NCBI GenBank assembly: GCA_021782205.1
Contig: JAJXVH010000003.1
Span: 31,931-95,930, forward strand
DNA: 64,000 nt
Direction: 5' to 3'
Source: a bacterium
Lineage (GTDB): Bacteria > Elusimicrobiota > Elusimicrobia > UBA1565 > UBA9628
The notes below the pieces were generated by a model, which did not search any database, had not been told where the DNA came from, and worked only from the letters and a program-made list of their open reading frames with translations. The position numbers and the translations under genes were made by a program. Below, in pieces: positions 14,955-35,590 of this stretch (its first letter is position 1; each line of letters opens with the position of its first letter).

Positions 14955-15028
14955 GACCGTTCTCCGCGCGGAGGTCGCACCCCGGCCGCCTTTCGGCGAT
15001 CCGGAGAAAGCCGTCAGGAGCTAAAGAA

Positions 15029-15319: not shown

Positions 15320-15326
15320 GGCACAG

Positions 15327-15362
15327 GGCCTCCGGGCGGCGCGCACGCGCCGCCCGGAGGCC
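15327..15362 (+). promoter_or_regulatory. perfect 16-bp GC-rich hairpin between atpE and atpF
   Basis: GGCCTCCGGGCGGCGC / GCGCCGCCCGGAGGCC with a 4-nt loop and no T-tract. Likely an intra-operon mRNA stabiliser or attenuator. Confidence 0.5.
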
Positions 15363-15398
15363 GCAATTTGAAGTTCATGGACGCAGGAGCGCAAACGA

Positions 15399-16435: not shown

Positions 16436-16436
16436 A

Positions 16437-17944
<1,508 letters not shown>

Positions 17945-17948
<4 letters not shown>

Positions 17949-19323: not shown

Positions 19324-19324
19324 C

Positions 19325-20224: not shown

Positions 20225-20241
20225 GAATTTCAAGGAGACCC

Positions 20242-21985
<1,744 letters not shown>

Positions 21986-22493: not shown

Positions 22494-22988
22494 ATGAGTC
22501 CATCTAAAGACCGCACGCGCGGGGGATTTAAGGCGCCGCCGCCCCCGCCAATCGACGGCAACCATTCGAAGGTGATCCGCAAGGCTGCGGGGGCGTTCGA
22601 GTGGAAGGACGTGCCACTGGAGCCGTACAAGACGGACACCGCGAACTACAAGGGCATATCACGCCGCGAACTCGTCGGCAAGCGCGGCGAGTCGGCGAAA
22701 TTTCACGTCCGCTATTTCGAAATCCAGCCCGGCGGTCACTCCACGCTGGAAAAGCACGAGCACGAGCACGTCGTCATCCCCATGCGGGGCGTGGGTGAGG
22801 CCCAGGCTGGTTGCTACGTCTGGACCGTCGGCGTCGGCGACGTCGTCTACGTCTCCCCCTCGGACCCGCATCAATTTCGCTGCCCCGAAGGCGCCACGGA
22901 GCCGTTCGGCTTCCTGTGCATCGTCAACTCCGAGCGCGACCGGCCGTCGCCGGTCGACGGACTGGGCGTCTGTCATATCTGCGAATAG
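22494..22988 (+). CDS. cupin-domain protein
   Basis: 164 aa. Cupin motif 1 PGGHSTLEKHEHEHVV and motif 2 GDVVYVSPSDPHQF. Cys-rich tail GLGVCHICE. Confidence 0.7.
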   Translation: MSPSKDRTRGGFKAPPPPPIDGNHSKVIRKAAGAFEWKDVPLEPYKTDTANYKGISRRELVGKRGESAKFHVRYFEIQPGGHSTLEKHEHEHVVIPMRGVGEAQAGCYVWTVGVGDVVYVSPSDPHQFRCPEGATEPFGFLCIVNSERDRPSPVDGLGVCHICE

Positions 22989-23003: not shown

Positions 23004-24179
23004 GTGTATAATCGGCCCGTGAACCAACCCCGCCACCCGGAAGATCTCCGGCTTGTTCTCAAGCAGCTTTCGCAGTGGGTCGACGCGGGCGTCGGCCGCC
23101 TGAAAGGCCGGGAGAACGAGACGCCGATCCGCGAGTTCCACCTGGAGCTTACCCATCGTTGCGACCTGAAGTGCGTGATGTGCCATCACTGGGAGATGCC
23201 CGCCAATGATCCCGACTCCGTGGGCCGAGAGCTTTCCGTCGAGGATATCCGCCGCTTTGTCTCGCAGTCGAAACTATTGGACAGCGTCCGCTTCGTGGCC
23301 GTGACCGGGGGCGAGCCGCTGATGCGCCCGGAGGCCGTCGAAATCATCGCCTTTCTGCGCGGGCATTTCCGCGAAGCCTCCGTGGGCCTGCTGACCAATT
23401 TCTGGAACTCGGGACTGCTACGACGGCGGCTCACGGAATTAAAGGACCTCGGCGTCGAAGACCTCTGGCTGGGGTCTTCCCTGGACGGGCTTGGCGCCAC
23501 GCACGATGCCATCCGCGGACAGGCCGGAGCCTTCGCGGGCTTCGAGAGAACTTTGGACATGCTACGCCGGGATTTCCCGCAGCTCCGGCTGACCGTGAAT
23601 TTCACGATCATCCCGCGCAACAGCTCGGAAATATTCGCCGTCTATCGGTGGGCGCAGGAACGGGAACTGGGGTTCGGATGTCAGCTGGTCGTCAATCACG
23701 AAGGCTTTCAGGCGCCGAAGACTTTCCGTTGGTCCGACGCCGAACTGGATGTCGTCGAAAGCCAGGTGGACTTGATCCTCGAGGACATCTGCGTCTCTCA
23801 AAAGGCTCTGCAGCGGCTGGTGACCCAGCCGGGACGTGAATCCCAATGGCTCTGGAACCGGATCCTGTTCTGGTGGTACCTGCGCAAGCACGGCCGCGGC
23901 GGTCCGCGCTTCTTTGACGACTGCATGGCCGGACGTCGTTACGCGATGTTCGACCCCGAAGGCAACCTTTTCTTCTGCCCGGTCAATAAGCACAAACAGG
24001 TGGGCAACGTGCGCGACACCCCGTTCGACGAGCTTTGGACTGGGCCGCGCGCGCGCGCGCTGGCCGGCGAAATGGTGCCGTGCCAGTGCCGCTGCTGGCT
24101 AAACTGCATCGCCAACCCCGTTCTCGACCGCGTGATGGAAGCCGCGTTCGATGAGACCACGCCCACGTCCGCGAGCTGA
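23004..24179 (+). CDS. radical SAM enzyme with C-terminal SPASM/twitch-like Cys cluster
   Basis: 391 aa. CxxxCxxC (HRCDLKCVMCHHW), GGEPLMRP, and a C-terminal Cys-rich region (FFCPVNKH...CQCRCWLNC). Confidence 0.85.
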   Translation: MYNRPVNQPRHPEDLRLVLKQLSQWVDAGVGRLKGRENETPIREFHLELTHRCDLKCVMCHHWEMPANDPDSVGRELSVEDIRRFVSQSKLLDSVRFVAVTGGEPLMRPEAVEIIAFLRGHFREASVGLLTNFWNSGLLRRRLTELKDLGVEDLWLGSSLDGLGATHDAIRGQAGAFAGFERTLDMLRRDFPQLRLTVNFTIIPRNSSEIFAVYRWAQERELGFGCQLVVNHEGFQAPKTFRWSDAELDVVESQVDLILEDICVSQKALQRLVTQPGRESQWLWNRILFWWYLRKHGRGGPRFFDDCMAGRRYAMFDPEGNLFFCPVNKHKQVGNVRDTPFDELWTGPRARALAGEMVPCQCRCWLNCIANPVLDRVMEAAFDETTPTSAS

Positions 24180-24200: not shown

Positions 24201-25439
24201 CTAGCGCGCCGGGGCTCCCGCCGGCCGAAGCAGTTCGTCGTAGAGATCGCCCAGGCGCGCGGCCAGCGTCCGCCAGTCGTAGCTTCTCAGCGCGGCGCGC
24301 CTTCCATTTTCCCCTAACTCAAGGCGCAGGGTCTCCGACTGGACCAAGCGGAGAACGGCATCGGCAAAGCGCGCCGCTCCGTCGGCGACCAGCAGATCCC
24401 TGCCGGCCTCGGCGTCCAGCCCGGATGCCGCGCGCGAACTGGCCACGACGGGAACCCCCATCGCGAACGCCTCCAGGATCTTCCCTTTGATCCCGCGCCC
24501 AAGCCTCACGGGAGCAACGAAGACCGTCGCGTCCGAAAGATAAGGACGCACGTCGGGAACCGTGCCGGTGACGCGCACGCCCGCGACGTTTTCCGCGGCG
24601 GCCTTCAAGACTTCCGTCGGATCAGAGCCCGCCAAAATGAGTTCGGCGCGCGGCTCCCGCTTCCGCACGCGCGGAAAGATGTCGCGCAGAAGGTGCAGCG
24701 CCGCGTCTTCGTTCGGGAAATGAGGATAGTGCCCGAGAAAAACGAGGCGCACGCCCGGCCCCGGCGGCTCGATGCGACGAAAATAATCAAGATCGACGCC
24801 GGTCGCGATCGCCGAGACGGTCGCGCGCGCAGAGAGCCGGCGCAGCGCCCGGCGGTCGGGCTCCGTCGTCACGACCACGCGGTCGTAGTCGGCGCCCGTC
24901 GCCGCAGCAAAGCGCACGCGTCGCCTCCACTCCGGCACGCGGGCCAGCTTTCCCCACCCCGACATCTCTCGGAAATACGAACCAAAGAAGGACGCGCCAC
25001 CCATGTCGTGCTGGGTGAGCACCTTCGCGGCACCGGAGAATCCTCGACCGTAGGCGGCCATCAGCTCGAACTCTGCGTGCACAATGTCCGCCTCGCCGGC
25101 ATCCACGAGAGCGCGCAGTTTTTCAGCCATCGCGGCGCTGTAGAAGCGCCGCGCGTCGTCGGGCAGTTCCAAACCGTCGAAAACGGCCGGCCCCGGTCCG
25201 GCGGGGCGCTCGACCCAATGAATGTTCTCGAACACCGGCCGCAACTCGGCGTGCTCGCGCCGCAAATCTTCCGCGATCTCCGCGATGCCGGAGGCTTTGC
25301 TTTGAAACGTCAGCAGCGAGAAACGGAAGCGGTCTCCCAGCATGCGGCAGAGGGAATGGATGCGCTTGGAGCCGCCGTCGTAGGGATAGGGGGCCCAGGG
25401 CGTCAGCATCAATACGCGGGGGCGCGCGGGCGTGCTCAT
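24201..25439 (-). CDS. glycosyltransferase family 4 (GT-B)
   Basis: 412 aa. VLMLTPWAPYPYDGGSKR N-terminus; VFVAPVRLGRGIKGKILEAFAMGVPVVAS (E-X7-E region). Confidence 0.85.
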   Translation of the reverse strand: MSTPARPRVLMLTPWAPYPYDGGSKRIHSLCRMLGDRFRFSLLTFQSKASGIAEIAEDLRREHAELRPVFENIHWVERPAGPGPAVFDGLELPDDARRFYSAAMAEKLRALVDAGEADIVHAEFELMAAYGRGFSGAAKVLTQHDMGGASFFGSYFREMSGWGKLARVPEWRRRVRFAAATGADYDRVVVTTEPDRRALRRLSARATVSAIATGVDLDYFRRIEPPGPGVRLVFLGHYPHFPNEDAALHLLRDIFPRVRKREPRAELILAGSDPTEVLKAAAENVAGVRVTGTVPDVRPYLSDATVFVAPVRLGRGIKGKILEAFAMGVPVVASSRAASGLDAEAGRDLLVADGAARFADAVLRLVQSETLRLELGENGRRAALRSYDWRTLAARLGDLYDELLRPAGAPAR

Positions 25440-25475: not shown

Positions 25476-26090
25476 ATGGAGCGAGAACCCTTTCCGGAAA
25501 AGCTAATTTTTGACGAGGGCGACCTTCCGCCGAACAGCGGCTGGAACATGCGCCGCATACTCGCCGATCTTGAAACCGGAATCATCCCCGAGGATTTCCG
25601 CCGCTTTTTCGACCGCGACCCGGAACGGACGACACCTTCGGAAGCGGGCCTGGTCGTGGCCCCCGCCGACGGCCTCCTGGAATTGCGGCGTCGCGAAGGA
25701 CACGCCGCCGAATTCGTCGTGCACCTGCGCCTGACGGACGTCCACGTCCAGCGTGTGCCGCTGGCCGGCACGGTGGTGTCCGTGCGTAGCGAAGGCAGCG
25801 GTTTTTTTTATCCCGATCAGGAAGGCTATTGGGGCGGCGTGCAGACGGCGACGACCATCGATTCGGCGGCGGGCGTCTACGTCGTCCGGCAGATCACGAC
25901 CTTATTGACCCGGCGCATCGAAAGCTATCTGACGCCCGGAACGTCGGCGACGACGGGACAACGCCTCGGCCGCATACGCCTGGGAAGCACGGTCGTGCTG
26001 GAGCTTCCCGGACGCTGGGAGCCGCTCTGCCGCGACGGGCAGAAAACGGTCGCGGGGGAGACACCATTGGCGCGTCTCGTTTCCGCATGA
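25476..26090 (+). CDS. phosphatidylserine decarboxylase-family (short, archaetidylserine-decarboxylase-like) protein
   Basis: 204 aa. VAPADGLL and the self-cleavage-type LGSTVVL motif near the C-terminus. Confidence 0.65.
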   Translation: MEREPFPEKLIFDEGDLPPNSGWNMRRILADLETGIIPEDFRRFFDRDPERTTPSEAGLVVAPADGLLELRRREGHAAEFVVHLRLTDVHVQRVPLAGTVVSVRSEGSGFFYPDQEGYWGGVQTATTIDSAAGVYVVRQITTLLTRRIESYLTPGTSATTGQRLGRIRLGSTVVLELPGRWEPLCRDGQKTVAGETPLARLVSA

Positions 26091-26115: not shown

Positions 26116-29100
26116 TTAGTCGCCGCGCAGTTCGGCATCGACCCACGCGTAAAACTCGGTCCACGGCGCGGGCCCCTCGCGAAGGACCAATCTCCTCCAG
26201 AGACGCTCGAGTTCCTCGGCGCGCTCCGGGAATTCCTGGACATAGAGCGAGCGCAGAAGATCGAGATTGAAGAAAGGGGCGCCGATGCCTCGCCCAAGCA
26301 AAAGCCGTAGCCCCATCGCGCGCCCGAGCAGGTAGTGCTGGATATAACCTCGCGACAGAGACGAACCCTCGCACGCCTGCCAGCGCCAGACGCAACGCAA
26401 GGTCGCGCGGCTTTCTCGGGCAAGATCAAGCACAAGCGCGTCCGGGGCTTCGACGGCGGACAAGCGTTCGCGGCCCCATGCGTACTGCCAAGCGCCCGGG
26501 AGCGGCACGCCAGCGCTCGTCAAGAAGTCCCCGGACCCGGCCCCGGGCTCAAGAAACCGAGTCGGAGACTCCAGATAGGCCAGCCGAGACCAGACCTTCC
26601 AGGACGAGGCCGTCAGAACGATCGGCAGCGTTGCGGGCTCGCCGCGCAGGGCGATCATGCGGGACAAAGACTCAAAAATACGGGCCAGCGATTGAGGAGC
26701 AACGGCGGCGTCGTCGAGAACGAGATAGGTGCGATACAGGTCGTCGGCACAACCCGCGACGAGTGCGCCCTCGCAAGCGCGCGCGTATTCCTCCACGAGG
26801 CCGCGCCGACGGCGCAGCTCAACGGCCACCAAGGGCGACGACTCCGACGCCGCGTAAACCCAGCGCAGGCTCGACTTGCCGGCCGCGGGCCAGGAGGCAA
26901 GCGCCCGATATGCGCCGTCGTGCAACCGAGAGAGGCTCTCAGCGCACAGCTGAGCGCGAGCGGGGGGAGACTCCGCCGCGGCCAACGCCTCGAAAGATAT
27001 TCTGAGCTCGGAGTCCGCCGCGTCCAGCGCGGTCTCCCGCGGCGCCAGATCCGAAGGCCCCGCCTCCGCGCCCGCCGCTCTCAGACGAATGACGTCGAGC
27101 GCGGCGTTGCGCGCCGATGAACGCCCGGCCTGCGACGGCTCCGGCCGCCACAGCGCGGACGCCATGAGCCGCGTGTACGCGTGGGCAAGCTCGCCCAACG
27201 GCTCGAGCGCGGTCTTCGCCGACGCGGGCCGCGCCTGCGTCCGAGGCAAACGCCCGTGCAAGGGCACCAACTGCTCCGCGAACTCGCGCGCGCGAAAGCC
27301 GCCCCACTGCGCGTAGCCGGAAAGCTCCGCGGGCTCGGCGACCAGACACTCGCCAAGAAACGGAAATGCGCCCTTGAGCAGGCCGTAGCGGGACCAGAAA
27401 CGTTCAAGCCAGCGCCGGCCGGTCTCTCCGGAGAGGTCTCGCGCGGCAACAAGCAGGTCCACGTCGCTGAGCCCCGGATCCCAATCGCGCCGTGTCCAGC
27501 TCCGGTGCGCGTACAGGGCGGACGCGTTGCCGTCCAGTAGCGCCCACAGCTGGAGCGCGCGCACTGGCAGGCCGTAGACCGCCCGGTAGGCCGCGCCGAA
27601 CAGCGGCAGTCGGCGCGTACGCAGAACGCCCTCGCGCAGCGCGCGCTTGAACTTCGCGACGGCCCCCCGTCCGGCGGGAAGATCTTCGCTGAGCTCGACT
27701 CGCGCGCCGCCCGCCGCATGCACGCGGTCGGCGCAACCGTGGAAGACGACGCGCGTCAGTCGATGAGAGCCGGACTCGGCGGTGAATCCCACTTCGGAAG
27801 CCTCGAGGATGCGCACGTCTTCAAGACTCGTATCGCCGTCGACCACGCCGACGCCGTAGCGCAAGCGACGCAGCGCGCAGTCCGTCAACGAGGCCGCCCC
27901 CCCGCCCGTCACGAACACCCCAGCCTCCGCCATATCGGAGAAACGGCAGTGCGAGGCGACCATTCGTCCGCCCGCAAGCGCCACGCCGTGGCCAGAAACG
28001 TCTTCAATAGCCACGCCTTCAAGCCGGATCTCGGCTCCGGACCCGATCGACAGCCCGCCCCCCGCCAATCTCCCCGAACTCCAGACCAGACGGCCGCGAG
28101 GAAGTTCGACGCCGCGCGAGCCCGAGAGCTCCACACCCGACAGCTCAAACGACGTTCCTTCAAAACGAGCGCCGCCCGCTCCTCCTTCAAGAGCCACGCT
28201 CTTAAGAACCGCCGAGCCGTCACACTCGATGCTTAGGCGCGGCCCCTTGAGCCGCATGCCCTCGAGCCGCAACCGTCCCGCCGTGACCCGCACGCCGCTC
28301 CCAAGACCCTCCACCGCGCCGCCCGCTATTTCAAGCGCGCCTCCGTTTTGAAAAACCGCCGGTCCGGCTTGGCCGCGCAAGACGCAGCCATCAAGCATCG
28401 TGCGCCCCTTCTCCGCCAAGACCCCGGCTTCGCCGCCGTCGAAGCGCGCGCGGCGCAGTTCGAGAAGGGCGTCGTCGGCCCGCACCGCCGTCCCCGCGTG
28501 TCCGGCCACGCCGAAGTCGTCGACGCGGAGTTCCGCGCCGCGCGCCACGAAGCCATCGACGCCGCCGACGACGACCACGCGTTCAGCGCGCACGACGGAC
28601 TGCGAATGGGCGCCGAGGGCCCGCTCGGCGCAATCCTCAAAATTCAGGCCGCGCAGGACCGCGGAGCCTCCGGAAATTTCCAATCCGAAGCGCGTACGCA
28701 CGAAAGCGCAGGCCTCAAGCTCCAATCGACGCGGACGCAGCGCAAGCATTCCTCCTTCCGGCCAGCCGGTCACGCGCAAGCCGCGCCCCCAGAGTTCCGC
28801 GTCCTCCAGATAAAGAGGGTTGCCGGCCCCCTCTTCGAGTGTGACGTCCTCCATGTGCGCCGCGACCCCAGAAAAAATACGCAAACCGCCGCCTCCACGC
28901 AGGAAGCCTCCGCGCCAGGAGAGCGCTCCCGAGAAAACCTCGACGCCGCGCGCGCAATTCTCGAGGCCGAGATCCTCGGCGTCAAGGCCGCCGCCCGCGC
29001 TGACGCCAAGCGCCGCCCGTAAGCCGCGCACCCCACGCAGAAAGAGAATGCCCCCCTCCATCCGGCACGCCGCGATCGACTGATCCTGAAAGGCGACGTT

Positions 29101-32100
29101 TTCGACCTGAGCACGCTCTCCCCCGCTCTCCAGGCCGAAACGTCCTCCCGCGACCCGGCCACCCGACCAGCGTAGCTCCCCGGCGCGTTGAGCGACGCCC
29201 GACGCGCAGCCGGACGCCTGGAAGCCTTCAAGAAGCAATCTGCCTCCCCCAAAGCTAAGCGCCGAACCGCAGTCCGTCACGGCGGCGTCGCGCAATTCAT
29301 ATTCGCCCCGGTCAAGCTCGAAAGCCGCCTTAACGGCGCGCTCGACGCGCACGCGCGTCAGACGCGCGCTTTTTCCGGTTTGTCCCAAGCCCACGGGCGA
29401 GCCCAACAACGCGCAGTCCTCGAGCTCAAGCTCGGCCGACTCGGCGAATATGCCGATTTCCCCGCAGTCCGACACGCCCAAACGCCGAGCCCTCAGCCCT
29501 CCCCCCGTGCTCGACAGGCCGCGGCGGCAGCGCTCGATCCGGCTGTCCTCGAACTCAAGCTTGGCCGCCTCGGCGAATATGCCGATCTCCGCGTCCGACA
29601 CGACGACGCGTCGCGCCCTCAGACCTCCCCCCGTGCTCGACAGGCCGCGGCGGCAGCGTTCGATCCGGCAGTCCTCGATCTCAGCACTCGCGTCGCGCCC
29701 CAGCAGGACGACGCCGCTTTCGCAACCGGAGAAACTCGAGAACTTTAGCGCCGCCCGCGCCGCATCGTGGAGCGTCACGGCCGCGCACAGGCTGCCCCCG
29801 GCAAGAACGTGGCTCAAGACGGATTCCCCGGAATCGCCGAAGACGTGGATTCCCGCCCAAGGCGCGCCCCCGAATTGAATCGGCTCCTGCTCCGTTGCCT
29901 CGGCGCGCAATTTCCCCCCGATCAGCAGGCAACACCTTCCGGAAAGCACTCGCGGCGGGTCTTTCCAGGTTAGACGCTCCTTGAGGCATTCCCATTGCGA
30001 ATCGGCCCGGAAGACGATCTCCGTACCGGGCTCGACGTTCAGCGTAGCGCCGGAAGGGACGAAAACATCGCCCTCCACTTGAATACGCCCCGACCAATTC
30101 TGGTCGCCGTCAAGAACGCCGAAGATCCCGGACGCGTCCTTAAAAGACACTTCCGCGATGTGCGCCGCGACTCCGGGAAAGACCGCCAGCGCGCCGCCGC
30201 GCAAAAAGCCGCCGCGCCAGGACAGCGGCCCCGCGGAAACCTCAACGCCTCGTGCGCAACCCTCGACGCCAAGGTCCTCGGCGTCCAGCGGCCCCGCCGC
30301 GCTAATTCCCAGCGCCCCGTGAGAAACGCGCACTTCGCGAAGAGAAAGACCGCCGGCGTCCATGAGGCACCCCGCGATCGATTGGGCCTGAAACGCCACG
30401 TTTTCGATCCGCGCGCGCGTGCCCGCGCTTTCCAAGCCGAAACGCCCGCCCCGAATCCACCCGCCCGACCAGCTCAGTTCCCCAGTGCGCTGGACGACAC
30501 CCGACCCGCAGCTGGACGCTTCGAAGCCTTCGAGCCGCAGGCGCTCCCCTGCGAAGTGGAGCGCCGCCCCGCAGTCCGTCGCCGCGGAGCCGCGCAGTTC
30601 ATACGCGCCGCCGCCGAGCTCGAAGGCCGCCTTGGTCGCCCGCTCCACGCGCACGCGCGTCAGGCGCGCGCCGCCTCCGTTTTGGGCCAGCCCCACCGGT
30701 GAGCCGGAGAGCGCGCAGTCCTCGAGTTCGAGCTCAGATTCCGAGGCGAACACGCCGAACTCGCCGGCGTCCGATGCGGAGACGCGGCGCAACGTCAGCC
30801 CGCCGCCCGCCACACGCAACCCCGCGATCGACTGAGCCTGAAACACGACGTCTTCGACTCGGGCGCTCGCGCCCGCGCTCTCCAGGCCAAAACGCCCGCC
30901 CGAGACCCGCCCTCCCGACCAGCTCAACTCACCGGCGCGCAGGACGATGCCCGAGCCGCAACCGGACGCCTCGAAGCCTTCAAGCCGCAGATTTTCTCCC
31001 GCGAAGTTGAGCGCCTTCCCGCAATCCGTCGCCGAGGAGCCGCGCAGTTCGTAGGAGCCGCCGTCGAGTTCGAAGGCCGCCGTAGACGCGCGCTCCACGC
31101 GCACGCCCGTCAATCGCCCTGCGCCCCCGATTTGCGCCAGCCCCACCGGCGAACCGGAAAACGCACAGTCTTCGAGCTCCAATTCCGCATCCTGAGCGAA
31201 CACACCGATCTCGCCGCAGTCAGAGATCACGACGCGTTTGCCCGTGAGCCCGCCGCCCGCGCTCGAAAGACCGCGCCGGAGGCTCCGTTCGATCCGGCAA
31301 TCCTCCAGCGCGGCGCTCGCGCCGCGGCCGACCAAGGACACGCCTCCCTCGCAGTCCGAGAAGCGCGAGAATTTAAGCGTCGCTTGCGCGGAGTCGTGCA
31401 GCGTCACTGCCGCGCACAGGCTTCCGCCGGCAAATACGTGGCTCAGGGAGGAGCCCCAGGAGTCGGTCACGAAGTGGATCCCTGCCCAATCCGCGCCGCC
31501 GAACCGAATCGGGGACTGCGACGTTGCCTCGGCGAGAAGACGCCCGCCGATGAGCAGCCGGCACTTGCCCTCGAGGTTCTGCGGCCAGCCTTTCCAGATA
31601 CGGCACTCCTTCAGGCAGTCCCACTGCGAATCGGCCCGGAACACGATCTCCGTGCCGGGCTCGACGCGCAGCGTGGCCCCCGGAGGCACGAACACGTCGC
31701 CTTCGACCAATATGCGTCCCGACCACCGCTGGTCCCCATCAAGAATACCGAATACCGAGCGCGCGGATTCGGAATCGGGCGGCGCCGCGATCTCAGCGCC
31801 GCAGGTCAGCCTCGCGCCGAGCGACTGCAGGCGTGCGTAGGCGCCAGCGGTCGCGCGCTCGCGCCAGGCGAGCAAGCCTAGAAGCGTGCCTCGGGTCGAC
31901 CGCGGCAAAGGCAGGCGCGTCCAGCCCAGGCGCAACGCGGCCTCGCACAAGCGGTCGGCCGCCGCAAGGCCGCGATAGACCGGCGCGCCCAGCGCGGCAA
32001 GCGCGAGCCCCCACACACGTCCCTGAGGCCCGACCGAACGCCACACGCCCGCAACACGCGCCGCCTCAACGACGCCGACGACGGCCGGCTCCGGCGACAA

Positions 32101-32361
32101 CGGGTCGGGTAGCAGGTTCGCGTCCCCCTTGGTGACCGCGCAGAGAACACCCGCACGTCGTCGCCGCCCAAGAAAGCGATGCACGACATACTCCGGGGGC
32201 CCGCCCCGCCAGTCGAGCACGACGGCAAGGTCGCCCGGGCGCAATTCGGAGAGCAGCGCGCGCCGCACCAGAATGCGATCTCCCGCCTTAAGCAGGAAGC
32301 GCATAGAATCACCGCGAACGGCCAATGTCCAGGTCCGCGCGGGCTCCGGCATAGGGCTCAC
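26116..32361 (-). CDS. giant 2081-aa multidomain protein: S26B/SipW-like peptidase signature, tandem parallel beta-helix modules, nucleotidyltransferase-like C-terminal region
   Basis: Single uninterrupted ORF. GTG start overlaps the stop of the upstream GT2 gene (GTGA); an alternative ATG lies at 32352. Domain evidence is in the findings. Confidence 0.85.
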   Translation of the reverse strand: MSPMPEPARTWTLAVRGDSMRFLLKAGDRILVRRALLSELRPGDLAVVLDWRGGPPEYVVHRFLGRRRRAGVLCAVTKGDANLLPDPLSPEPAVVGVVEAARVAGVWRSVGPQGRVWGLALAALGAPVYRGLAAADRLCEAALRLGWTRLPLPRSTRGTLLGLLAWRERATAGAYARLQSLGARLTCGAEIAAPPDSESARSVFGILDGDQRWSGRILVEGDVFVPPGATLRVEPGTEIVFRADSQWDCLKECRIWKGWPQNLEGKCRLLIGGRLLAEATSQSPIRFGGADWAGIHFVTDSWGSSLSHVFAGGSLCAAVTLHDSAQATLKFSRFSDCEGGVSLVGRGASAALEDCRIERSLRRGLSSAGGGLTGKRVVISDCGEIGVFAQDAELELEDCAFSGSPVGLAQIGGAGRLTGVRVERASTAAFELDGGSYELRGSSATDCGKALNFAGENLRLEGFEASGCGSGIVLRAGELSWSGGRVSGGRFGLESAGASARVEDVVFQAQSIAGLRVAGGGLTLRRVSASDAGEFGVFASESELELEDCALSGSPVGLAQNGGGARLTRVRVERATKAAFELGGGAYELRGSAATDCGAALHFAGERLRLEGFEASSCGSGVVQRTGELSWSGGWIRGGRFGLESAGTRARIENVAFQAQSIAGCLMDAGGLSLREVRVSHGALGISAAGPLDAEDLGVEGCARGVEVSAGPLSWRGGFLRGGALAVFPGVAAHIAEVSFKDASGIFGVLDGDQNWSGRIQVEGDVFVPSGATLNVEPGTEIVFRADSQWECLKERLTWKDPPRVLSGRCCLLIGGKLRAEATEQEPIQFGGAPWAGIHVFGDSGESVLSHVLAGGSLCAAVTLHDAARAALKFSSFSGCESGVVLLGRDASAEIEDCRIERCRRGLSSTGGGLRARRVVVSDAEIGIFAEAAKLEFEDSRIERCRRGLSSTGGGLRARRLGVSDCGEIGIFAESAELELEDCALLGSPVGLGQTGKSARLTRVRVERAVKAAFELDRGEYELRDAAVTDCGSALSFGGGRLLLEGFQASGCASGVAQRAGELRWSGGRVAGGRFGLESGGERAQVENVAFQDQSIAACRMEGGILFLRGVRGLRAALGVSAGGGLDAEDLGLENCARGVEVFSGALSWRGGFLRGGGGLRIFSGVAAHMEDVTLEEGAGNPLYLEDAELWGRGLRVTGWPEGGMLALRPRRLELEACAFVRTRFGLEISGGSAVLRGLNFEDCAERALGAHSQSVVRAERVVVVGGVDGFVARGAELRVDDFGVAGHAGTAVRADDALLELRRARFDGGEAGVLAEKGRTMLDGCVLRGQAGPAVFQNGGALEIAGGAVEGLGSGVRVTAGRLRLEGMRLKGPRLSIECDGSAVLKSVALEGGAGGARFEGTSFELSGVELSGSRGVELPRGRLVWSSGRLAGGGLSIGSGAEIRLEGVAIEDVSGHGVALAGGRMVASHCRFSDMAEAGVFVTGGGAASLTDCALRRLRYGVGVVDGDTSLEDVRILEASEVGFTAESGSHRLTRVVFHGCADRVHAAGGARVELSEDLPAGRGAVAKFKRALREGVLRTRRLPLFGAAYRAVYGLPVRALQLWALLDGNASALYAHRSWTRRDWDPGLSDVDLLVAARDLSGETGRRWLERFWSRYGLLKGAFPFLGECLVAEPAELSGYAQWGGFRAREFAEQLVPLHGRLPRTQARPASAKTALEPLGELAHAYTRLMASALWRPEPSQAGRSSARNAALDVIRLRAAGAEAGPSDLAPRETALDAADSELRISFEALAAAESPPARAQLCAESLSRLHDGAYRALASWPAAGKSSLRWVYAASESSPLVAVELRRRRGLVEEYARACEGALVAGCADDLYRTYLVLDDAAVAPQSLARIFESLSRMIALRGEPATLPIVLTASSWKVWSRLAYLESPTRFLEPGAGSGDFLTSAGVPLPGAWQYAWGRERLSAVEAPDALVLDLARESRATLRCVWRWQACEGSSLSRGYIQHYLLGRAMGLRLLLGRGIGAPFFNLDLLRSLYVQEFPERAEELERLWRRLVLREGPAPWTEFYAWVDAELRGD
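26119..27650 (-). other. C-terminal approx. 510-aa region of the giant ORF, nucleotidyltransferase-like (NTP_transf_5-like) start
   Basis: ALYAHRSWTRRDWDPGLSDVDLLVAARDL resembles the G/S-x-D-x-D-LLV core of the uncharacterised NTase family. The remainder is helical and Arg/Leu/Ala-rich. Confidence 0.35.
28822..31758 (-). repeat. two paralogous in-frame beta-helix modules (543 aa and 436 aa) inside the giant ORF
   Basis: Module 1 (30130-31758) and module 2 (28822-30129) both start (S/G)xFG(I/V)LDGDQxWSGRIxVEGDVFVPxGATLxVEPGTEIVFRADSQW and end AAH(I/M)xxV. A 450-nt sub-repeat starts at about 31224, 30774 and 29472. Confidence 0.85.
29410..29664 (-). repeat. in-frame 126/129-nt tandem duplication (IERCRRGLSSTGGGLRARR...) within module 2
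   Basis: A 49-nt stretch at 29490-29538 matches 29616-29664 with 2 mismatches. CTCGGCGAATATGCCGAT is also duplicated, at 29440 and 29569. Confidence 0.85.
32062..32334 (-). other. S26B (SipW/Sec11/archaeal-type signal peptidase)-like segment of the giant ORF
   Basis: Ordered motifs VRGDSM ... GDRILV ... GDLAVV ... YVVHRF ... VTKGDANLLPD. Confidence 0.6.
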
Positions 32362-33647
32362 CCCGCGCCGGAGGCCGCGGGATTAACGTCGTCGAGAAAT
32401 GCCAAAGACTGCCGGCACCACTTGTCCAGGAAAAGTTCGCGATTCAGCCGCGCCTGCTCGGCCATCGCCGCGAAACTGCGGAAACTTTTGTGGCCGTGGT
32501 GGCGGACGAATACGTCCCTCGCCACCGCGAGATCGTAGCCGGCCTGACGCAGACGCAGGCAGTAGTCGAATTCTTCATAAGTGCCGATGCCGAAACGCTC
32601 GTCGAGCAGGCCCACCAGCCGCACGGCCTCGCGCTTAATGAGCACGCAGAAACCCGTGAGTCGGGGCACTCCTTCGGCCTGGCCCGCATAGCGCAGGGCC
32701 CAGGCCTCGGAGAACATGGCGAGATCGCGCGCGGTTTTGAACGGCGGCGCGGCGACACGCTGGGAGCCCACGGTGACGTCGGTGCAGGGACCGACCGCCG
32801 CGATCCATGGCGCCCGCTCGGCGCAGTCGATCAAGCGCTCGAGCCAACCCGGAGTGACGACCACATCGTTGTTGAGCCAGACGAGCCAGCGTCCGCGCGC
32901 CGCGGTCATGCCTTGATTGATCGCCTTCGCGAAGCCGAGATTTGTCTTATTGCGGATCACCCGGGCACCCGCGCGCCGCGCCCAGGCACCGGTACCGTCC
33001 GCCGATGCGTTATCGACGACGATTATCTCGTAGGGACTCTGGGTGTGCTGCTTGACGGCTTCAAGACACTCGCGCGTCCAGCGCAAGCCGTCGACGCAAG
33101 GAACGATGATGCTCGTCAGCGCGCGCGGGCCGCGCGGGCGGCCGAGGGCACGCAGGCGGCTTGCCATCCACGCCGCTTCAGGGCGCGCGCGGCGGGCAAA
33201 TCCCCCCTCGGCATCAGCGGTCCCCGCGCCGAACGCCCAAATCTCGTCGGCCGCGCAGGACTGGCGCTCAAGGCGCTCGCGCTCGCGGCGCGGAGCATGG
33301 AACGCGTCCCTAAATAAGCGCGCAGACGGCCGCTCGTCTCCGGCCGCTCGTCCCAAAATCGCAAGCACCAGCGGCATGCGGGTGAACTCCCGCAAAGAGG
33401 GCAGGCAGGCACGCGACTCGGGACCGTCAACGATCACCACCGCCTCATACGAGCGCGCCGTTATCGCCTCGCGGCAGCGCTGGGCCAGCGCGTCAGAGAC
33501 CGCGTGCTCCGCGCCGGAGGATTCAAGCCGATCGACGGCCCATCGGCGTTCAAGTTCCCGGCCGAGACTCCGTGCCGCGCGCACCGCGCCGCGGGGAAGA
33601 ACGAGCAATATCCGGGAATGGGCGCTTCGGTGAGCGGCGGCCTTCAT
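32358..33647 (-). CDS. glycosyltransferase family 2 with approx. 175-aa N-terminal extension
   Basis: 429 aa. SIIVPCVDGLRWTRECLEAV...YEIIVVDNASADGT...WLNNDVVV (DxD-like). Confidence 0.85.
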   Translation of the reverse strand: MKAAAHRSAHSRILLVLPRGAVRAARSLGRELERRWAVDRLESSGAEHAVSDALAQRCREAITARSYEAVVIVDGPESRACLPSLREFTRMPLVLAILGRAAGDERPSARLFRDAFHAPRRERERLERQSCAADEIWAFGAGTADAEGGFARRARPEAAWMASRLRALGRPRGPRALTSIIVPCVDGLRWTRECLEAVKQHTQSPYEIIVVDNASADGTGAWARRAGARVIRNKTNLGFAKAINQGMTAARGRWLVWLNNDVVVTPGWLERLIDCAERAPWIAAVGPCTDVTVGSQRVAAPPFKTARDLAMFSEAWALRYAGQAEGVPRLTGFCVLIKREAVRLVGLLDERFGIGTYEEFDYCLRLRQAGYDLAVARDVFVRHHGHKSFRSFAAMAEQARLNRELFLDKWCRQSLAFLDDVNPAASGAG

Positions 33648-33968: not shown

Positions 33969-35012
33969 CTAGGCCAGCAGGTAGCGACGCAACTGCTCGT
34001 AATAGTCAAGGACGGCGCGCACGTAGCCCTGCGTCTCGAGATACGGCGGCACGCCATGATATTTCTGGACCGCGCCGGGCCCGGCGTTATAGGCCGCGAC
34101 CACGTTCTTGACGCCGCGGCTGTAGAACGGATCGACGTTCTGCAAATTGCTCATGCTGAAATCCGCGAAGTCCCCCCAAAGCCCGCGCAGGTAGCGCACG
34201 CCCGCCGCGATGTTCGTTTCCACGTCGTAGAGCATTCCCGCGTTATTCACGCCCAGGTCTCGGCCGGTGCCGGGCATGATCTGCATCAGGCCGCGCGCGC
34301 CCACGGCGCTACGCGCGTACGGATTGAAGCCGGACTCCGCGTTGATGACGGAGAGCACGAGGAGGGGATCAGCATGCTGGCGCAGGGCCTCGCGAATGGC
34401 CGCGTCGACGATGCGCGGGTTAGCCCCCTCGGAGACCAGTATCTGGCGGACCTTGCTGTAGCGGGCGAGGTCGTCGGGCCCGGCGGACGCGGGAGCGAAA
34501 AAAGCCGAGGAATTGGAGAAATCATAGGACGCGTGCCCGTAGGCACGGGCGCCGTCGAATGGGGACTGGGCCGCCGCGAAGCTGGCCAGCCGCGCGCGCG
34601 TCGTCTCCTCGATCTGCACCTGCACCGTCAGCGCGCGCGCAAAGTCCGCGATCGACCGGGCCTTGCGCGTCTCGCCGTTGACGTAGGCGCAGAAGCCCGG
34701 CCCGGACGAGTCGCCGTATTTCGCCTGGAAAACAGCCAACTTCCAATCATGAAGAGCCCGGCGCAAGGAGGGAACGTCTTCATGCGGATCATTCAGACGC
34801 GATTTCAGGCGATCCAGGCTCGGGCCAAACTTCACGTCGGCCGGGTCTCCCGGAGGCAGCTCCAGGCTTCGCCAGGCATCCACGTCCGAGAGCATCTGCG
34901 CCCGAGATTCCGGCGCCGGAGTCGCGCCGCACTCGTCCTGAGCCTGGGCGCGCGCGAGCGTGAACACCGCCGCCAAAACCACCGTCGACAGAAGAACCTT
35001 CATCTTCCGCAT
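33969..35012 (-). CDS. lytic murein transglycosylase (SLT domain), secreted
   Basis: Internal ATG (MRKMKVLLSTVVLAAVFTLARAQA) of ORF 33969..35087. SLT motif VINAESGFNPYARSAVGARGLMQIMPGTG. Confidence 0.85.
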   Translation of the reverse strand: MRKMKVLLSTVVLAAVFTLARAQAQDECGATPAPESRAQMLSDVDAWRSLELPPGDPADVKFGPSLDRLKSRLNDPHEDVPSLRRALHDWKLAVFQAKYGDSSGPGFCAYVNGETRKARSIADFARALTVQVQIEETTRARLASFAAAQSPFDGARAYGHASYDFSNSSAFFAPASAGPDDLARYSKVRQILVSEGANPRIVDAAIREALRQHADPLLVLSVINAESGFNPYARSAVGARGLMQIMPGTGRDLGVNNAGMLYDVETNIAAGVRYLRGLWGDFADFSMSNLQNVDPFYSRGVKNVVAAYNAGPGAVQKYHGVPPYLETQGYVRAVLDYYEQLRRYLLA

Positions 35013-35074
35013 TGTAGCGCCGCCGCCGCGTCCGGCCGAGGACCCAAGGGCCCACTGGCGCGCGGTCTTTGGCC

Positions 35075-35590
35075 CTACTCCGCCCAAGGCAGGCGGCGCA
35101 CGATCCCCTGTAGGGCCTGCTTCGAGACGAAATAGACGCGCGCCCCCGAAGAGGCCCGCCAGACCGAGGAATCATCCGATTCGTCGCGATTGTCTCCCAG
35201 CATGAAGTAGGAGTCGGCCGGGACCGTCATGGGCCCAAGGTCGTCGCCTTCCAGTGTTTCGTTCTCGCGCCGATGTACCGCATAATCCTCATCCTGCGCC
35301 GCGCCGTTGAGTACGACCTTCTTGCCGCGCAGTTCGATCTGGTCCCCGGGAACCGCGATCACGCGCTTGACCATGTCCTCATCGCCCACCGGACTACGGA
35401 AGGAGACAACCTCTCCCCGACGCGGCGGCCGGGCGCGTAAAGTCCACTTATCAAGGATCAGAAGCGTGCCGATAGACAAAGTCGGCTCCATGGACCCGCT
35501 CGCGATCACGATAGGCTCCGCGATCCAGCTCCTCACGGGCAGGACCACGGCCGCGGCGATCGCCGTCAAACGCAGTAGGCGCAGAAACAT
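35075..35590 (-). CDS. lepB: signal peptidase I
   Basis: 171 aa. N-terminal TM, SGSMEPTL, RGEVVSF, VKRVIAVPGD, and YFMLGDNRDESDDS boxes. Confidence 0.9.
   Translation of the reverse strand: MFLRLLRLTAIAAAVVLPVRSWIAEPIVIASGSMEPTLSIGTLLILDKWTLRARPPRRGEVVSFRSPVGDEDMVKRVIAVPGDQIELRGKKVVLNGAAQDEDYAVHRRENETLEGDDLGPMTVPADSYFMLGDNRDESDDSSVWRASSGARVYFVSKQALQGIVRRLPWAE

What the first reader, a model, noticed from the sequence alone, without database searches (positions are those of the whole stretch)
26116..32361. Giant 2081-aa fusion: SipW/S26B-like peptidase, double beta-helix and NTase-like domain
Seen in sequence: one uninterrupted 6.2-kb ORF. Residues ~10-100 carry, in order, VRGDSM, GDRILV, GDLAVV, YVVHRF and VTKGDANLLPD. 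This is the Ser/His signature and TKGDxNxxxD box of S26B signal peptidases (SipW, Sec11, archaeal type). However, no N-terminal TM helix precedes the segment; only a possible hydrophobic stretch (VWGLALAALGAPVY) follows it. Residues ~200-1560 are Gly/Ala/Val/Arg-rich short turns typical of right-handed parallel beta-helix (PbH1/NosD-like) proteins. From ~1600 the sequence YAHRSWTRRDWDPGLSDVDLLVAARD resembles the core of the uncharacterised nucleotidyltransferase family (NTP_transf_5-like). Established knowledge: S24/S26-like peptidases and that NTase family co-occur as separate genes in some peptide-tailoring neighbourhoods. SipW-type peptidases process matrix or fibre proteins. Inference: a single polypeptide combining all three, embedded among GT2/GT4/radical-SAM genes, matches no system I know. 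It could be a self-processing surface or matrix assembly or glycopolymer-modifying machine.
Basis: partly seen in the sequence, partly recalled or inferred. Interest (0 to 1): 0.85.

Follow-up and report, generated by a model that had tools for sequence, protein, structure and literature searches.

The report
Elusimicrobial peptidase, beta-helix, nucleotidyltransferase-fold giant protein
The 6.2-kb gene is real and encodes a protein type seen so far only in Elusimicrobiota: an anchor-less Sec11/SipW-type serine peptidase, a duplicated beta-helix and an uncatalogued nucleotidyltransferase-fold domain that always travels with a GT2 glycosyltransferase, so it most likely helps build a strain-variable sugar conjugate, though its chemistry is unknown.

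Summary
Window 26116..32361 (-) is one 2081-aa ORF with every quoted motif.

- **N-terminus (res 10-109):** a Sec11/SipW-type (S26B) fold with invariant Ser19/His61/Asp80/Asp86. It has no membrane anchor and is followed by a two-helix hairpin.
- **Middle (res 198-1555):** two duplicated right-handed beta-helix cassettes.
- **C-terminus (521 aa):** no hit in Pfam, NCBIfam or PDB sequences, and it is not PF14907. A confident AlphaFold model matches ANT-type nucleotidyltransferases (AadA, LinB). GxSDxD plus a third Glu are invariant.

This C-terminal domain defines a family of 227 cluster representatives. Every named member is from an Elusimicrobiota MAG. Architectures vary:

- domain alone (75 of 150);
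- peptidase + beta-helix + domain (25);
- peptidase + domain (7);
- beta-helix + domain with no signal peptide;
- GT2 + domain fusions (5);
- one locus with the domain and the peptidase as adjacent separate genes.

A GT2 gene sits directly upstream in five loci. Neighbours are GT4, radical-SAM, SGNH and GT-C genes. In a near relative (AtpD 99% identical) the giant is only 47% identical.

Best reading: a cytoplasmic or membrane-peripheral module of a fast-evolving glycoconjugate pathway. It is not a chimera, toxin or secreted fibre. Substrate and chemistry are unknown.

The parts
26116..32361 (-). Whole ORF: 2081 aa from the GTG, or 2078 aa from the more likely ATG at 32352. Stop codon at 26116-26118.
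   Evidence: single-ORF homologues in L004, L006, L008, L011
32035..32334 (-). S26B (Sec11/SipW-type) Ser/His peptidase beta-barrel, res 10-109. Catalytic candidates: Ser19 (32305-32307), His61 (32179-32181), Asp80 and Asp86 (32104-32106).
   Evidence: Pfam S24 25.2 bits and TIGR02228 37.6 bits; AF2 pLDDT 92.8; Foldseek top hits SEC11C/A, SipA, SpsB; profile vs PDB SEC11C E 5e-10 with aligned SM/GD/HR/KGD..D boxes; invariance in 23-27 homologues
31804..32028 (-). Two long helices (res 112-149 and 154-186) forming a hairpin after the peptidase. Amphipathic here; the first helix is strongly hydrophobic in more distant homologues.
   Evidence: AF2 secondary structure; hydropathy scan; alignment
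30142..31770 (-). Beta-helix cassette A, res 198-740: a cap module (198-337, FGILDGDQRWSGRI...) followed by ~22-aa rungs, including a 150-aa tandem duplication (391-540 vs 541-689, 71% identity).
   Evidence: Pfam Beta_helix/NosD; self-comparison; 450-bp tandem repeat at 30369-31216
27697..30141 (-). Beta-helix cassette B, res 741-1555. Its cap (741-880) is 72% identical to the cassette A cap, and 921-1210 is 56% identical to 486-778. Homologues of 1322-1508 aa carry a single cassette.
26119..27681 (-). C-terminal 521-aa domain (res 1561-2081), the defining module of an uncatalogued family. Order of parts: two N-terminal helices, NTase-fold core, helical bundle, second alpha/beta module, helical tail.
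   Evidence: no Pfam/NCBIfam/PDB sequence hit; 227 homologues; AF2 pLDDT 86, pTM 0.89; Foldseek AadA/LinB/AAD(9)/MntA
27247..27534 (-). NTase-fold core, res 1610-1705. Motifs: HRSW..DWDPGLS-D1633-V-D1635-L and FPFLG-E1671, the putative metal-binding triad.
   Evidence: invariant S72/D73/D75/P107/G110 in A2; E111 (= E1671; D in some stand-alone A2 members) invariant in A1, A3 and A4; strand-helix pattern in the model
32358..33647 (-). GT2 glycosyltransferase (429 aa; GT-A domain 179-400; best NCBIfam resemblance MftF, below cut-off). Its stop overlaps the giant's GTG (GTGA). This is the conserved partner of the C-terminal domain.
   Evidence: GT2 directly upstream in L002/L003, L004, L007, L013; GT2-domain fusions P0051/52/73/77/89
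23004..24179 (+). Radical SAM/SPASM enzyme. Conserved near the family: 94% identical in L008, 73% in L004, also present in L012.
24201..25439 (-). GT4 glycosyltransferase (best resemblance TIGR03087, PEP-CTERM/XrtA-system GT, below cut-off). Downstream of the giant on the same strand.
   Evidence: conserved in L008 and L006
25476..26090 (+). Small phosphatidylserine-decarboxylase-family gene, convergent with the giant. Conserved in this position in L006 and L008. Relatives L001 and L004 carry an HprK-like P-loop gene here instead.
22494..22988 (+). Cupin_2 protein immediately upstream of the radical SAM gene. Conserved in L008.

Best explanation
The gene encodes one genuine polypeptide of a modular family known so far only from Elusimicrobiota.

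**Core and accessory modules.** The core of the family is the ~500-aa C-terminal domain. It has a DNA-polymerase-beta-type nucleotidyltransferase fold with an intact GxSDxD...E metal site, and it works together with a GT2 glycosyltransferase. The GT2 is adjacent and translationally coupled here, and fused in other members. Two accessory modules have been added in this protein:
- an S26B (Sec11/SipW-type) Ser/His peptidase that has lost the membrane anchor;
- a right-handed beta-helix spacer, doubled here by tandem duplication.

**Proposed mechanism.** On the cytoplasmic side, possibly held at the membrane by the helical hairpin, the GT2 and the NTase-fold domain jointly build or decorate a sugar-containing product. 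The NTase-fold domain would transfer a nucleotidyl or phospho-linked group from an NTP or NDP-activated donor onto a hydroxyl of the acceptor, as ANT enzymes, LicD/fukutin-type enzymes and PsmN do. The beta-helix would bind or space the glycan or acceptor. The peptidase would clip a protein or peptide component of the pathway, either a carrier or primer or the giant itself. The product is strain-variable.

**Shown:** gene integrity, folds, conserved catalytic residues, modular architectures, GT2 linkage, glycan-type neighbourhoods, rapid divergence.

**Inferred:** cytoplasmic location, catalytic activity, donor and acceptor, role of the peptidase and of the beta-helix.
For: **Integrity and recurrence**
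- Homologous single ORFs carry the same three parts on independent contigs: L004 (1508 aa), L006 (1409 aa), L008 (1322 aa), L011 (1350 aa).
- Among the 150 best representatives, 25 have peptidase + long insert + C-terminal domain and 7 have peptidase + C-terminal domain.

**Peptidase**
- Profile hits SEC11C/SEC11A at E 5e-10 and 3e-9, with Ser, His and Asp boxes aligned.
- Fold match to SEC11C/A (rmsd 3.7-3.8 Å, 23-24% identity), and to SipA and SpsB.
- M20, G27, H61, R62, D80 and D86 are invariant, and Ser19 is present wherever the N-terminus is complete.

**NTase fold**
- AF2 pLDDT 86, pTM 0.89.
- Best PDB matches are consistently AadA, LinB, AAD(9), ANT(4') and MntA (probability 0.9-1.0).
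- S/D/D and P..G motif residues are invariant, and the third acidic residue is Glu or Asp.

**GT2 coupling**
- A 4-nt GTGA overlap joins GT2 and the giant in the window.
- GT2 lies directly upstream in L002/L003, L004, L007 and L013.
- Five GT2 + domain fusion proteins were confirmed by Pfam.

**Rosetta-stone split**
- In L007 the order is GT2, then the 506-aa domain protein, then a separate 160-aa S26-like gene.

**Cytoplasmic side**
- No TM or signal segment in the giant.
- About 25 relatives begin directly with the beta-helix cap (M..DETWSG..) and have no signal peptide.

**Glycan context**
- Neighbours are GT2, GT4, SGNH/AlgX, PMT_2 (GT-C), sulfatase-family, TPR and radical-SAM genes.

**Rapid divergence**
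- Against L008: AtpD 99%, rSAM 94%, PSD 92%, GT4 85%, but the giant 47% and GT2 63%. The GT2 gene is also relocated.

**Phylum restriction**
- Every named member and every genome locus found is an Elusimicrobia/Elusimicrobiota MAG.
Against: - No activity, substrate or product is known for any member.
- The NTase assignment rests on a predicted structure with modest Foldseek E-values (0.03-0.1; target-normalised TM about 0.45). It covers only the first half of the domain.
- There is no polysaccharide export, polymerase or flippase gene next to the gene in the window.
- S26 peptidases normally act on the trans side of membranes. More distant homologues have a strongly hydrophobic helix after the peptidase, and sometimes another before the C-terminal domain. 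An alternative topology with the beta-helix outside is therefore not excluded for them.
- Radical SAM/SPASM and HprK-like neighbours, and a 37-aa ORF with a lasso-like leader motif in L004, fit a peptide-maturation reading equally well.
- One stand-alone member (L012) has no S26-like gene within 10 kb.
Confidence: 0.5

Rival explanations
1. Peptide (RiPP-like) maturation enzyme. The S26B domain is a cytoplasmic leader peptidase, comparable to SodX for NiSOD. The NTase-fold domain is a tailoring enzyme like PsmN, which adds hexose to a phosphorylated lasso peptide. The radical SAM/SPASM, GT2/GT4 and, in relatives, HprK-like kinase genes modify a small precursor peptide.
For: - A radical SAM/SPASM gene is conserved near the gene.
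- An HprK-like P-loop gene lies convergent to the giant in L001 and L004, with weak TIGR04352/04355 hits at E 3e-4.
- L004 has an operon of a 37-aa ORF (KYVKPRLTRHG..., resembling the lasso YxxPxLxxxG leader from my own knowledge), GT4, GT2 and the HprK-like gene, plus Asn-synthase and B12-rSAM genes.
- In lasso clusters, HprK-like kinases and an NTase-family protein act together (PMC6993621).
- The GT2's best NCBIfam resemblance is mycofactocin MftF.
Against: - No precursor-like small ORF with that motif exists in the window, and no HprK-like gene.
- No PqqD/RRE, lasso cyclase or PF14907 match was found.
- The 1350-aa beta-helix has no role in this model.
- Several contexts (L011, L013) are purely glycan-type: GT2, GT4, SGNH, PMT_2, sulfatase.
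- Direct GT2 fusions point to sugar chemistry as the core function.
Confidence: 0.2
2. One reading: a self-processing surface, matrix or fibre protein. The beta-helix is exported and forms or modifies an extracellular structure. The SipW-like domain cleaves the protein itself or a matrix protein outside the cell.
For: - SipW/Sec11-type peptidases process secreted proteins (established knowledge).
- Long, repeat-expanding, fast-evolving beta-helices are typical of surface proteins.
- Distant homologues have hydrophobic helices flanking the beta-helix, which could place it outside.
- SLT and LepB genes lie just upstream.
Against: - No signal peptide or TM segment in this protein or its close relatives.
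- Beta-helix + domain relatives start directly with the cap motif.
- An NTP-dependent fold at the C-terminus, stand-alone copies of that domain, and fusions to a soluble GT2 all argue for the cytoplasm.
- No secretion-system genes are adjacent.
Confidence: 0.1
3. Polymorphic toxin or anti-phage defence protein: repeats carrying a C-terminal enzymatic toxin or effector that is released by a peptidase.
For: The layout (peptidase, beta-helix repeats, C-terminal enzyme) and the strong divergence between close strains superficially resemble polymorphic toxins and defence islands.
Against: - The C-terminal domain is the conserved part of the family, not the variable part.
- No PADLOC or PHROG hit for the protein.
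- No secretion domain.
- The downstream gene is a conserved PSD-family gene, not an immunity-like ORF.
- The domain occurs alone and fused to GT2.
Confidence: 0.03
4. Artefact: an assembly chimera or a fusion of separate genes caused by frameshift.
For: The gene is repeat-rich, and in MAG GCA_040081745.1 it is broken over several contigs.
Against: The same architecture appears as one ORF in at least four independent assemblies and in 25 cluster representatives. Coding-type GC3 is 0.78 across the ORF.
Confidence: 0.01

Closest known systems
SEC11A/SEC11C, SipW and archaeal signal peptidase I (MEROPS S26B; TIGR02228)
   Same: Same fold. Same ordered boxes: SM (Ser), GD, HR (His), KGDxNxxxD (Asp). 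Best sequence and structure matches in the PDB.
   Different: - No N-terminal TM anchor.
- Scores below the TIGR02228 cut-off.
- Followed by a helical hairpin and fused to about 1900 further residues.
- Probably cytoplasmic.
- The window has its own canonical LepB at 35075-35590.
SodX, the nickel-SOD maturation protease (TIGR02754): a soluble S26-type peptidase that removes a leader in the cytoplasm
   Same: Small, anchor-less S26-type domain. Weak HMM resemblance: E 0.015 for the window domain, and it is the best hit for the split 160-aa gene in L007.
   Different: Far below the cut-off. The family here has the Ser/His (S26B) signature, with His in the HR box. There is no NiSOD context.
ANT-type nucleotidyltransferases AadA / ANT(3'')(9), AAD(9), LinB
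   Same: NTase core followed by a helical substrate-binding domain. These are the top Foldseek matches. The G.S..DxD + acidic triad is present.
   Different: 12-16% identity and no sequence-level hit. The domain here is twice as long, with an extra alpha/beta module and a helical tail. The context is glycosyltransferases, not antibiotic resistance.
PsmN / PF14907 (NTP_transf_5), the uncharacterised NTase family of lasso-peptide clusters
   Same: An NTase-fold protein that works with an HprK-like kinase and installs hexose on a phosphate (PMC6993621). HprK-like genes flank the giant in L001 and L004.
   Different: No PF14907 HMM match in the window domain or in 55 relatives. No lasso machinery in the window.
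NosD / PbH1 / CASH right-handed beta-helix proteins (e.g. AlgG-type polysaccharide modifiers)
   Same: Pfam Beta_helix in 31 of 38 and NosD in 14 of 38 long relatives. Rungs of about 22 aa.
   Different: No signal peptide. Sandwiched between two enzyme domains. Highly variable in length (0 to 2 or more cassettes). No catalytic motif identified.
MftF-type GT2 (mycofactocin glycosyltransferase) with an rSAM/SPASM maturase and a peptidase
   Same: The partner GT2's best NCBIfam resemblance is MftF. An rSAM/SPASM enzyme and a peptidase are in the same neighbourhood.
   Different: All scores are far below equivalog cut-offs (76.7 vs 280; 51 vs 265). No MftA/B/D/E equivalents.

Membership tests
S26B signal peptidase (SEC11/SipW/archaeal; TIGR02228) | S26 beta-barrel fold | tested here: met
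   AF2 pLDDT 92.8. Top Foldseek hits 7p2q_A/7p2p_A (SEC11C/A), 4n31 (SipA), 4wvj (SpsB), all with probability 1.0.
S26B signal peptidase (SEC11/SipW/archaeal; TIGR02228) | Catalytic Ser, His (not Lys) and Asp in conserved boxes B, D and E | tested here: met
   S19, H61, D80 and D86 align with the SGSM / VHR / KGDNN..DD boxes of SEC11A/C. They are invariant in the family.
S26B signal peptidase (SEC11/SipW/archaeal; TIGR02228) | Score above the curated family cut-off | tested here: not met
   TIGR02228 scores 37.6 bits against a cut-off of 51.85. The generic Pfam Peptidase_S24 model is passed (25.2 vs 23.3).
S26B signal peptidase (SEC11/SipW/archaeal; TIGR02228) | N-terminal TM anchor that places the catalytic domain on the trans side of the membrane | tested here: not met
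   Only 7 in-frame codons lie upstream. No hydropathy peak >=1.5 anywhere in the protein. The HMM match starts at model position 34.
S26B signal peptidase (SEC11/SipW/archaeal; TIGR02228) | Cleaves signal peptides of exported proteins | not testable with these tools
   Needs biochemistry.
Right-handed parallel beta-helix (PF13229 / PbH1) | HMM match above the gathering score, with repeated rungs | tested here: met
   Beta_helix scores 89.2 bits in 3 stretches. Internal repeats confirmed.
PF14907 NTP_transf_5 (uncharacterised nucleotidyltransferase) | HMM match | tested here: not met
   No hit at E<=1 in the window domain or in 17 stand-alone relatives. None at 1e-3 in 38 long relatives.
DNA polymerase beta-like nucleotidyltransferase fold superfamily | Alpha-beta-alpha-beta-alpha-beta core fold | tested here: met
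   The best PDB matches are all NTases: AadA, LinB, AAD(9), ANT(4'), MntA, 2rff. Probability is up to 1.0 but E is only 0.03-1, and target-normalised TM is 0.38-0.53. The model is confident.
DNA polymerase beta-like nucleotidyltransferase fold superfamily | hG[GS]x9-13 Dh[DE]h motif plus a third carboxylate on a later strand | tested here: met
   HR(G/S)..x..PGxS-D-x-D-L and FPxLG-E. S, D and D are invariant in 38 + 17 sequences. The third acidic residue is Glu or Asp, and it is invariant Glu in A1, A3 and A4.
DNA polymerase beta-like nucleotidyltransferase fold superfamily | Nucleotidyl or phospho-group transfer activity | not testable with these tools
   Needs an enzyme assay.
RiPP / lasso-type HprK + NTase tailoring cluster | Precursor peptide gene, RRE/PqqD and HprK-like kinase in the locus | tested here: not met
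   No HprK-like gene or leader-motif ORF in the window. An HprK-like gene is present only in relatives L001 and L004, with weak TIGR04352/04355 hits. The 37-aa ORF in L004 is unverified.
Polymorphic toxin / defence system | Variable C-terminal effector, secretion or trigger domain, immunity partner; hit in a defence library | tested here: not met
   The C-terminal domain is the conserved part. PADLOC and PHROGs give nothing.

The most novel reading that the evidence does not exclude
Elusimicrobiota possess a phylum-specific, cytoplasmic 'protein- or peptide-primed' glycoconjugate assembly system. In it, a Sec11-type signal-peptidase catalytic domain has been taken off the membrane and hard-wired to a new class of nucleotidyltransferase-fold transferase and a GT2. 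The NTase-fold domain forges a phospho- or nucleotidyl linkage between a sugar chain and a polypeptide, possibly the giant's own beta-helix. The peptidase then releases the product. This would be a previously unknown route to a strain-variable surface polymer.
Probability: 0.15. Interest if true: 0.85.

Novelty: new variant of a known kind. Interest (0 to 1): 0.6.

Why it matters
- **A large uncatalogued family.** It defines an unannotated protein family (227 cluster representatives at 50% identity) whose core domain has no Pfam, NCBIfam or PDB sequence match. Databases call these proteins only 'beta-helix repeat protein', 'glycosyltransferase' or 'hypothetical'.
- **A peptidase out of its usual place.** It shows a Sec11/SipW-type Ser/His peptidase with intact catalytic residues outside its canonical membrane-anchored, trans-side setting.
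- **Testable leads.** Domain fusion and split-gene evidence link the peptidase, a GT2 and an NTase-fold enzyme. This gives concrete hypotheses for envelope or glycoconjugate biology in Elusimicrobiota, a barely cultured phylum.
- **A possible variable surface trait.** The locus diverges far faster than its housekeeping neighbours.

Tried and rejected
**Searches that found little or nothing**
- Word-indexed protein searches with the C-terminal domain, the N-terminal domain and a family profile found only 1, 2 and 2 proteins. The exhaustive HMMER search was needed.
- The genome-contig scan with the single domain found nothing. A 5-sequence alignment gave 3 loci.
- Exact look-up of the window protein found no record, with either start.
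- PDB sequence searches with the C-terminal domain, alone and as a profile, and with beta-helix cassette A gave no meaningful hit.
- A PF14907 assignment was sought and not found.
- tblastn for an HprK-like gene, for L004's 37-aa ORF and for a YxxPxLxxxG small ORF in the window was negative.
- PADLOC and PHROGs were negative.
- Literature searches found no description of this architecture.

**Readings rejected**
- Chimera: refuted by multiple independent single-ORF homologues.
- Polymorphic toxin: the C-terminal domain is the conserved part.

**Left open**
- Whether the post-peptidase helix is a TM anchor. It is not hydrophobic enough here, but it is in distant homologues.

Full report
**1. 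Observation**

The window is 61-75% G+C by 2-kb window. ORF 26116..32361 (-) is 2081 aa and translates without a stop. The stop-to-stop frame reaches only 7 codons upstream, so no N-terminal TM helix can be hidden there.

The GTG overlaps the stop of the upstream GT2 gene (GTGA). An ATG three codons later, preceded by GGGGTGA, matches the start of homologue P0002 (MEPARSW) and is the more likely start.

Codon-position G+C is of the coding type (0.73/0.56/0.78). GC3 is lower than in the housekeeping neighbours, which reach 0.9 or more.

**2. N-terminal domain**

- Pfam Peptidase_S24 is passed: 25.2 bits against 23.3.
- NCBIfam's archaeal/SipW-type signal peptidase model TIGR02228 is the best hit but falls below its cut-off (37.6 vs 51.85). 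The match starts at model position 34, after the TM anchor of the model.
- Twenty-six family sequences (22 of them in the stored alignment A6) plus a separate gene in L007 were aligned with the window domain. M20, G27, H61, R62, D80 and D86 are invariant, and Ser19 is present wherever the N-terminus is complete.
- A profile of this alignment hits human SEC11C and SEC11A in the PDB at E 5e-10 and 3e-9. SGSM/GDSM, GD, VHR and KGDxN..D align box for box.
- AlphaFold (pLDDT 92.8) gives a beta-barrel at res 10-109 and two ~35-residue helices at 112-149 and 154-186.
- Foldseek's best PDB matches are SEC11C/A (rmsd 3.7-3.8 Å, 23-24% identity), then SipA, SpsB and E. coli SPase I.

The domain is therefore S26B-like and looks catalytically competent. 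It lacks the defining membrane anchor, and no segment of the giant reaches a Kyte-Doolittle 19-residue mean of 1.5. In more distant homologues the first post-barrel helix is strongly hydrophobic (up to 2.47). Membrane association by that helix is therefore possible in part of the family.

**3. Middle**

Pfam Beta_helix scores 89 bits, and NosD matches weakly. Self-comparison shows two cassettes:
- a cap module at 198-337, repeated at 741-880 (72% identity);
- a tandem 150-aa duplication, 391-540 vs 541-689 (71%);
- 486-778 repeated at 921-1210 (56%).

Tandem Repeats Finder sees the 450-bp and 126-bp repeats in the DNA. Relatives of 1322-1508 aa have one cassette. No solved structure matches by sequence.

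**4. C-terminal domain**

There is no hit in Pfam, NCBIfam or PDB sequences, even with a 17-sequence profile. In particular there is no PF14907 hit.

The exhaustive HMMER search found 227 representatives at E<=1e-3, of which 30 score E<=1e-30.

Alignments show an invariant ..HR(G/S)..DW.PG.S-D-x-D-L.. motif, then FP.LG-E (Glu or Asp), then Y...GG.RA, and further conserved K, D, P and R residues.

AlphaFold on that alignment is confident: pLDDT 86, pTM 0.89. The best PDB matches are uniformly nucleotidyltransferases with a helical second domain: AadA, LinB, AAD(9), ANT(4')-IIb, and the minimal NTases MntA and 2rff. Probabilities are up to 1.0, but E-values are only 0.03-1 and target-normalised TM is about 0.45.

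I accept 'NTase fold with an intact metal triad'. I reject 'member of PF14907'. The second half of the domain, an extra alpha/beta module plus helices, is unassigned.

**5. Is the fusion real and recurrent?**

Yes. Searching the representatives with the window's N-terminal 200 aa shows the homologous peptidase at the N-terminus of more than 25 of them.

Classifying the 150 best hits with two HMMs gives:

| Architecture | Count |
|---|---|
| C-terminal domain alone | 75 |
| Peptidase + long insert + domain | 25 |
| Peptidase + domain with a short linker | 7 |
| >300 aa before the domain, no peptidase | 31 |
| 100-300 aa before the domain, no peptidase | 13 |

Of the group of 31, most start directly with the beta-helix cap motif (M..DETWSG..) and have no signal peptide. 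Five start with a GT2 domain, confirmed by Pfam for P0051, P0052, P0073, P0077 and P0089. Beta_helix is found in 31 of 38 long members.

In L007 the order is GT2, then the 506-aa domain protein, then a separate overlapping 160-aa S26-like gene carrying GDSM...VVHRL...TRGDA..D.

The C-terminal domain is thus the constant element. GT2, peptidase and beta-helix are modules that are fused or adjacent in different combinations.

**6. Neighbourhood**

Window gene order:

| Coordinates | Strand | Gene |
|---|---|---|
| 14202-21985 | + | ATP synthase operon |
| 22494-22988 | + | cupin |
| 23004-24179 | + | rSAM/SPASM |
| 24201-25439 | - | GT4 |
| 25476-26090 | + | PSD-family gene |
| 26116-32361 | - | giant |
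| 32358-33647 | - | GT2 |
| 33969-35087 | - | SLT |
| 35075-35590 | - | LepB |
| from 35980 | + | tuf, nusG, L1 |

Related loci:
- L004: rSAM/SPASM (73% identical), then GT2 (64%), then the giant. Convergent to it is an operon of a 37-aa ORF, GT4, GT2 and an HprK-like P-loop protein, plus B12-rSAM and Asn-synthase genes.
- L001: an HprK-like gene is also downstream.
- L006 and L008: the PSD-family gene is downstream, as in the window.
- L011: GT4, TPR, giant, SGNH, two sulfatase-family genes, B12-rSAM, PMT_2, AlgX-like.
- L012: PMT_2-TPR, GT2, GT4, GT2, rSAM/SPASM, GT2, the domain protein, TPR, Sel1-rSAM/SPASM.
- L013: GT2, peptidase-domain protein, GT2, GT4, SGNH, GT2-methyltransferase, GT4.

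A GT2 lies directly upstream and co-directional in the window, L002/L003, L004, L007 and L013.

**7. Evolution and taxonomy**

L008 (Elusimicrobia MAG 13) is a close relative. Protein identities to the window are:

| Protein | Identity |
|---|---|
| AtpD | 99% |
| rSAM | 94% |
| PSD | 92% |
| cupin | 90% |
| LepB | 88% |
| GT4 | 85% |
| SLT | 79% |
| GT2 | 63% |
| giant (1322 aa there) | 47% |

The GT2 also sits after the rSAM gene there instead of before the giant. The giant/GT2 pair therefore evolves or is exchanged much faster than its surroundings.

Every member with a source name, and all three GTDB loci, are Elusimicrobia/Elusimicrobiota MAGs. Sources call them 'right-handed parallel beta-helix repeat-containing protein', 'glycosyltransferase', 'S24/S26 family peptidase' (for a fragment) or 'hypothetical'.

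**8. Interpretation**

Five lines of evidence point the same way: GT2 fusions and adjacency, the absence of export signals, an NTP-type fold, glycan-type neighbourhoods, and fast strain-level divergence. Together they make a cytoplasmic or membrane-peripheral role in synthesis or decoration of a variable glycoconjugate the best-supported reading (confidence 0.5).

What the NTase-fold domain transfers is inferred, as is what the peptidase cuts. Candidates for the transfer are nucleotidyl groups, phospho-sugar or phospho-alcohol. The analogies are ANT enzymes, LicD/fukutin-type enzymes (my own knowledge) and PsmN (PMC6993621).

The main rival is a peptide-maturation system (0.2), supported by the rSAM/SPASM genes, the HprK-like genes and L004's small ORF. 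It lacks any precursor or kinase in the window.

Toxin or defence (0.03) and artefact (0.01) are essentially excluded.

**9. Novelty**

All three folds are known. The C-terminal family is uncatalogued, the anchor-less S26B domain is atypical, and I found no description of the architecture or of the GT2-linked module in the literature searched. I rate it a new variant of known kinds, with interest 0.6.

Noticed in passing
window 35075-35590 (-) and 33969-35087 (-): A canonical bacterial LepB-type signal peptidase I (SGSMEPTL...GDNRDESDDS, with an N-terminal hydrophobic helix) and an SLT lytic transglycosylase lie just upstream of the GT2-giant pair. Both are conserved in L008. The organism therefore has a normal SPase I in addition to the anchor-less S26B domain.
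   Followed up: partly
window 18268-19323 (+): An NAD-dependent sugar epimerase/dehydratase gene sits inside the ATP synthase operon, between atpA (16437-17948) and atpG (Pfam match begins near 19330). This is an unusual insertion of a sugar-nucleotide gene in a housekeeping operon.
   Followed up: no
window 32358-33647 vs L008 7622-8992: The GT2 gene is in a different place and orientation in the close relative L008. There it follows the rSAM gene, as in L004. In the window it lies directly before the giant. This indicates a recent local rearrangement.
   Followed up: partly
L004 12175-12288 (-): A 37-aa ORF, MTKKSPTGKNDKKRRKYVKPRLTRHGELSQTALAKSY, heads a GT4-GT2-HprK-like operon that converges on the giant homologue. 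Its KYxxPxLxxxG stretch resembles lasso/RRE-recognised leader motifs (from memory). No counterpart exists in the window.
   Followed up: partly
L001 2259-3248 (-) and L004 9127-10116 (-): A 329-aa protein with a GGGKS(T/E) P-loop is weakly similar to HprK-related kinases A/B (E 3e-4). It overlaps the 3' end of the giant homologues convergently (4 nt in L001, 24 nt in L004). In the window, L006 and L008 that position is occupied by a PSD-family gene instead.
   Followed up: partly
window 48750-52448 (-): The SecA ORF is 1232 aa, and the SecA DEAD domain starts only at residue 320. Either SecA has a long N-terminal extension or the mechanical ORF list places the start too early.
   Followed up: no
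window 1397-3070 (+): The RecA domain begins at residue 204 of a 557-aa ORF, and the ORF at 1245-1805 overlaps it. The start is probably over-extended, or a CinA-like gene lies upstream.
   Followed up: no
window 4650-9940: A second small glycan-type set lies far from the giant: a TPR protein (4650-6227), a GT2-like region (6236-7177, 44% identical to L004's second GT2) and a GT4 (8618-9940, which also matches the 'GT4-conflict' Pfam model). The set is interrupted by a thiolase gene.
   Followed up: no
window 22494-22988 (+): A Cupin_2 protein with an HEHEH metal motif and a Cys-rich C-terminus (VCHICE) lies directly upstream of the rSAM/SPASM gene and is conserved with it in L008. It could be a partner or a substrate of the rSAM enzyme.
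   Followed up: no
P0009/P0010 and P0051/P0073/P0090 (NCBI accessions MBI56... and MBI35...): Accession series suggest that single Elusimicrobia MAGs carry several paralogues of the C-terminal-domain family: giant, GT2-fused and stand-alone forms. That would imply intragenomic diversification.
   Followed up: no
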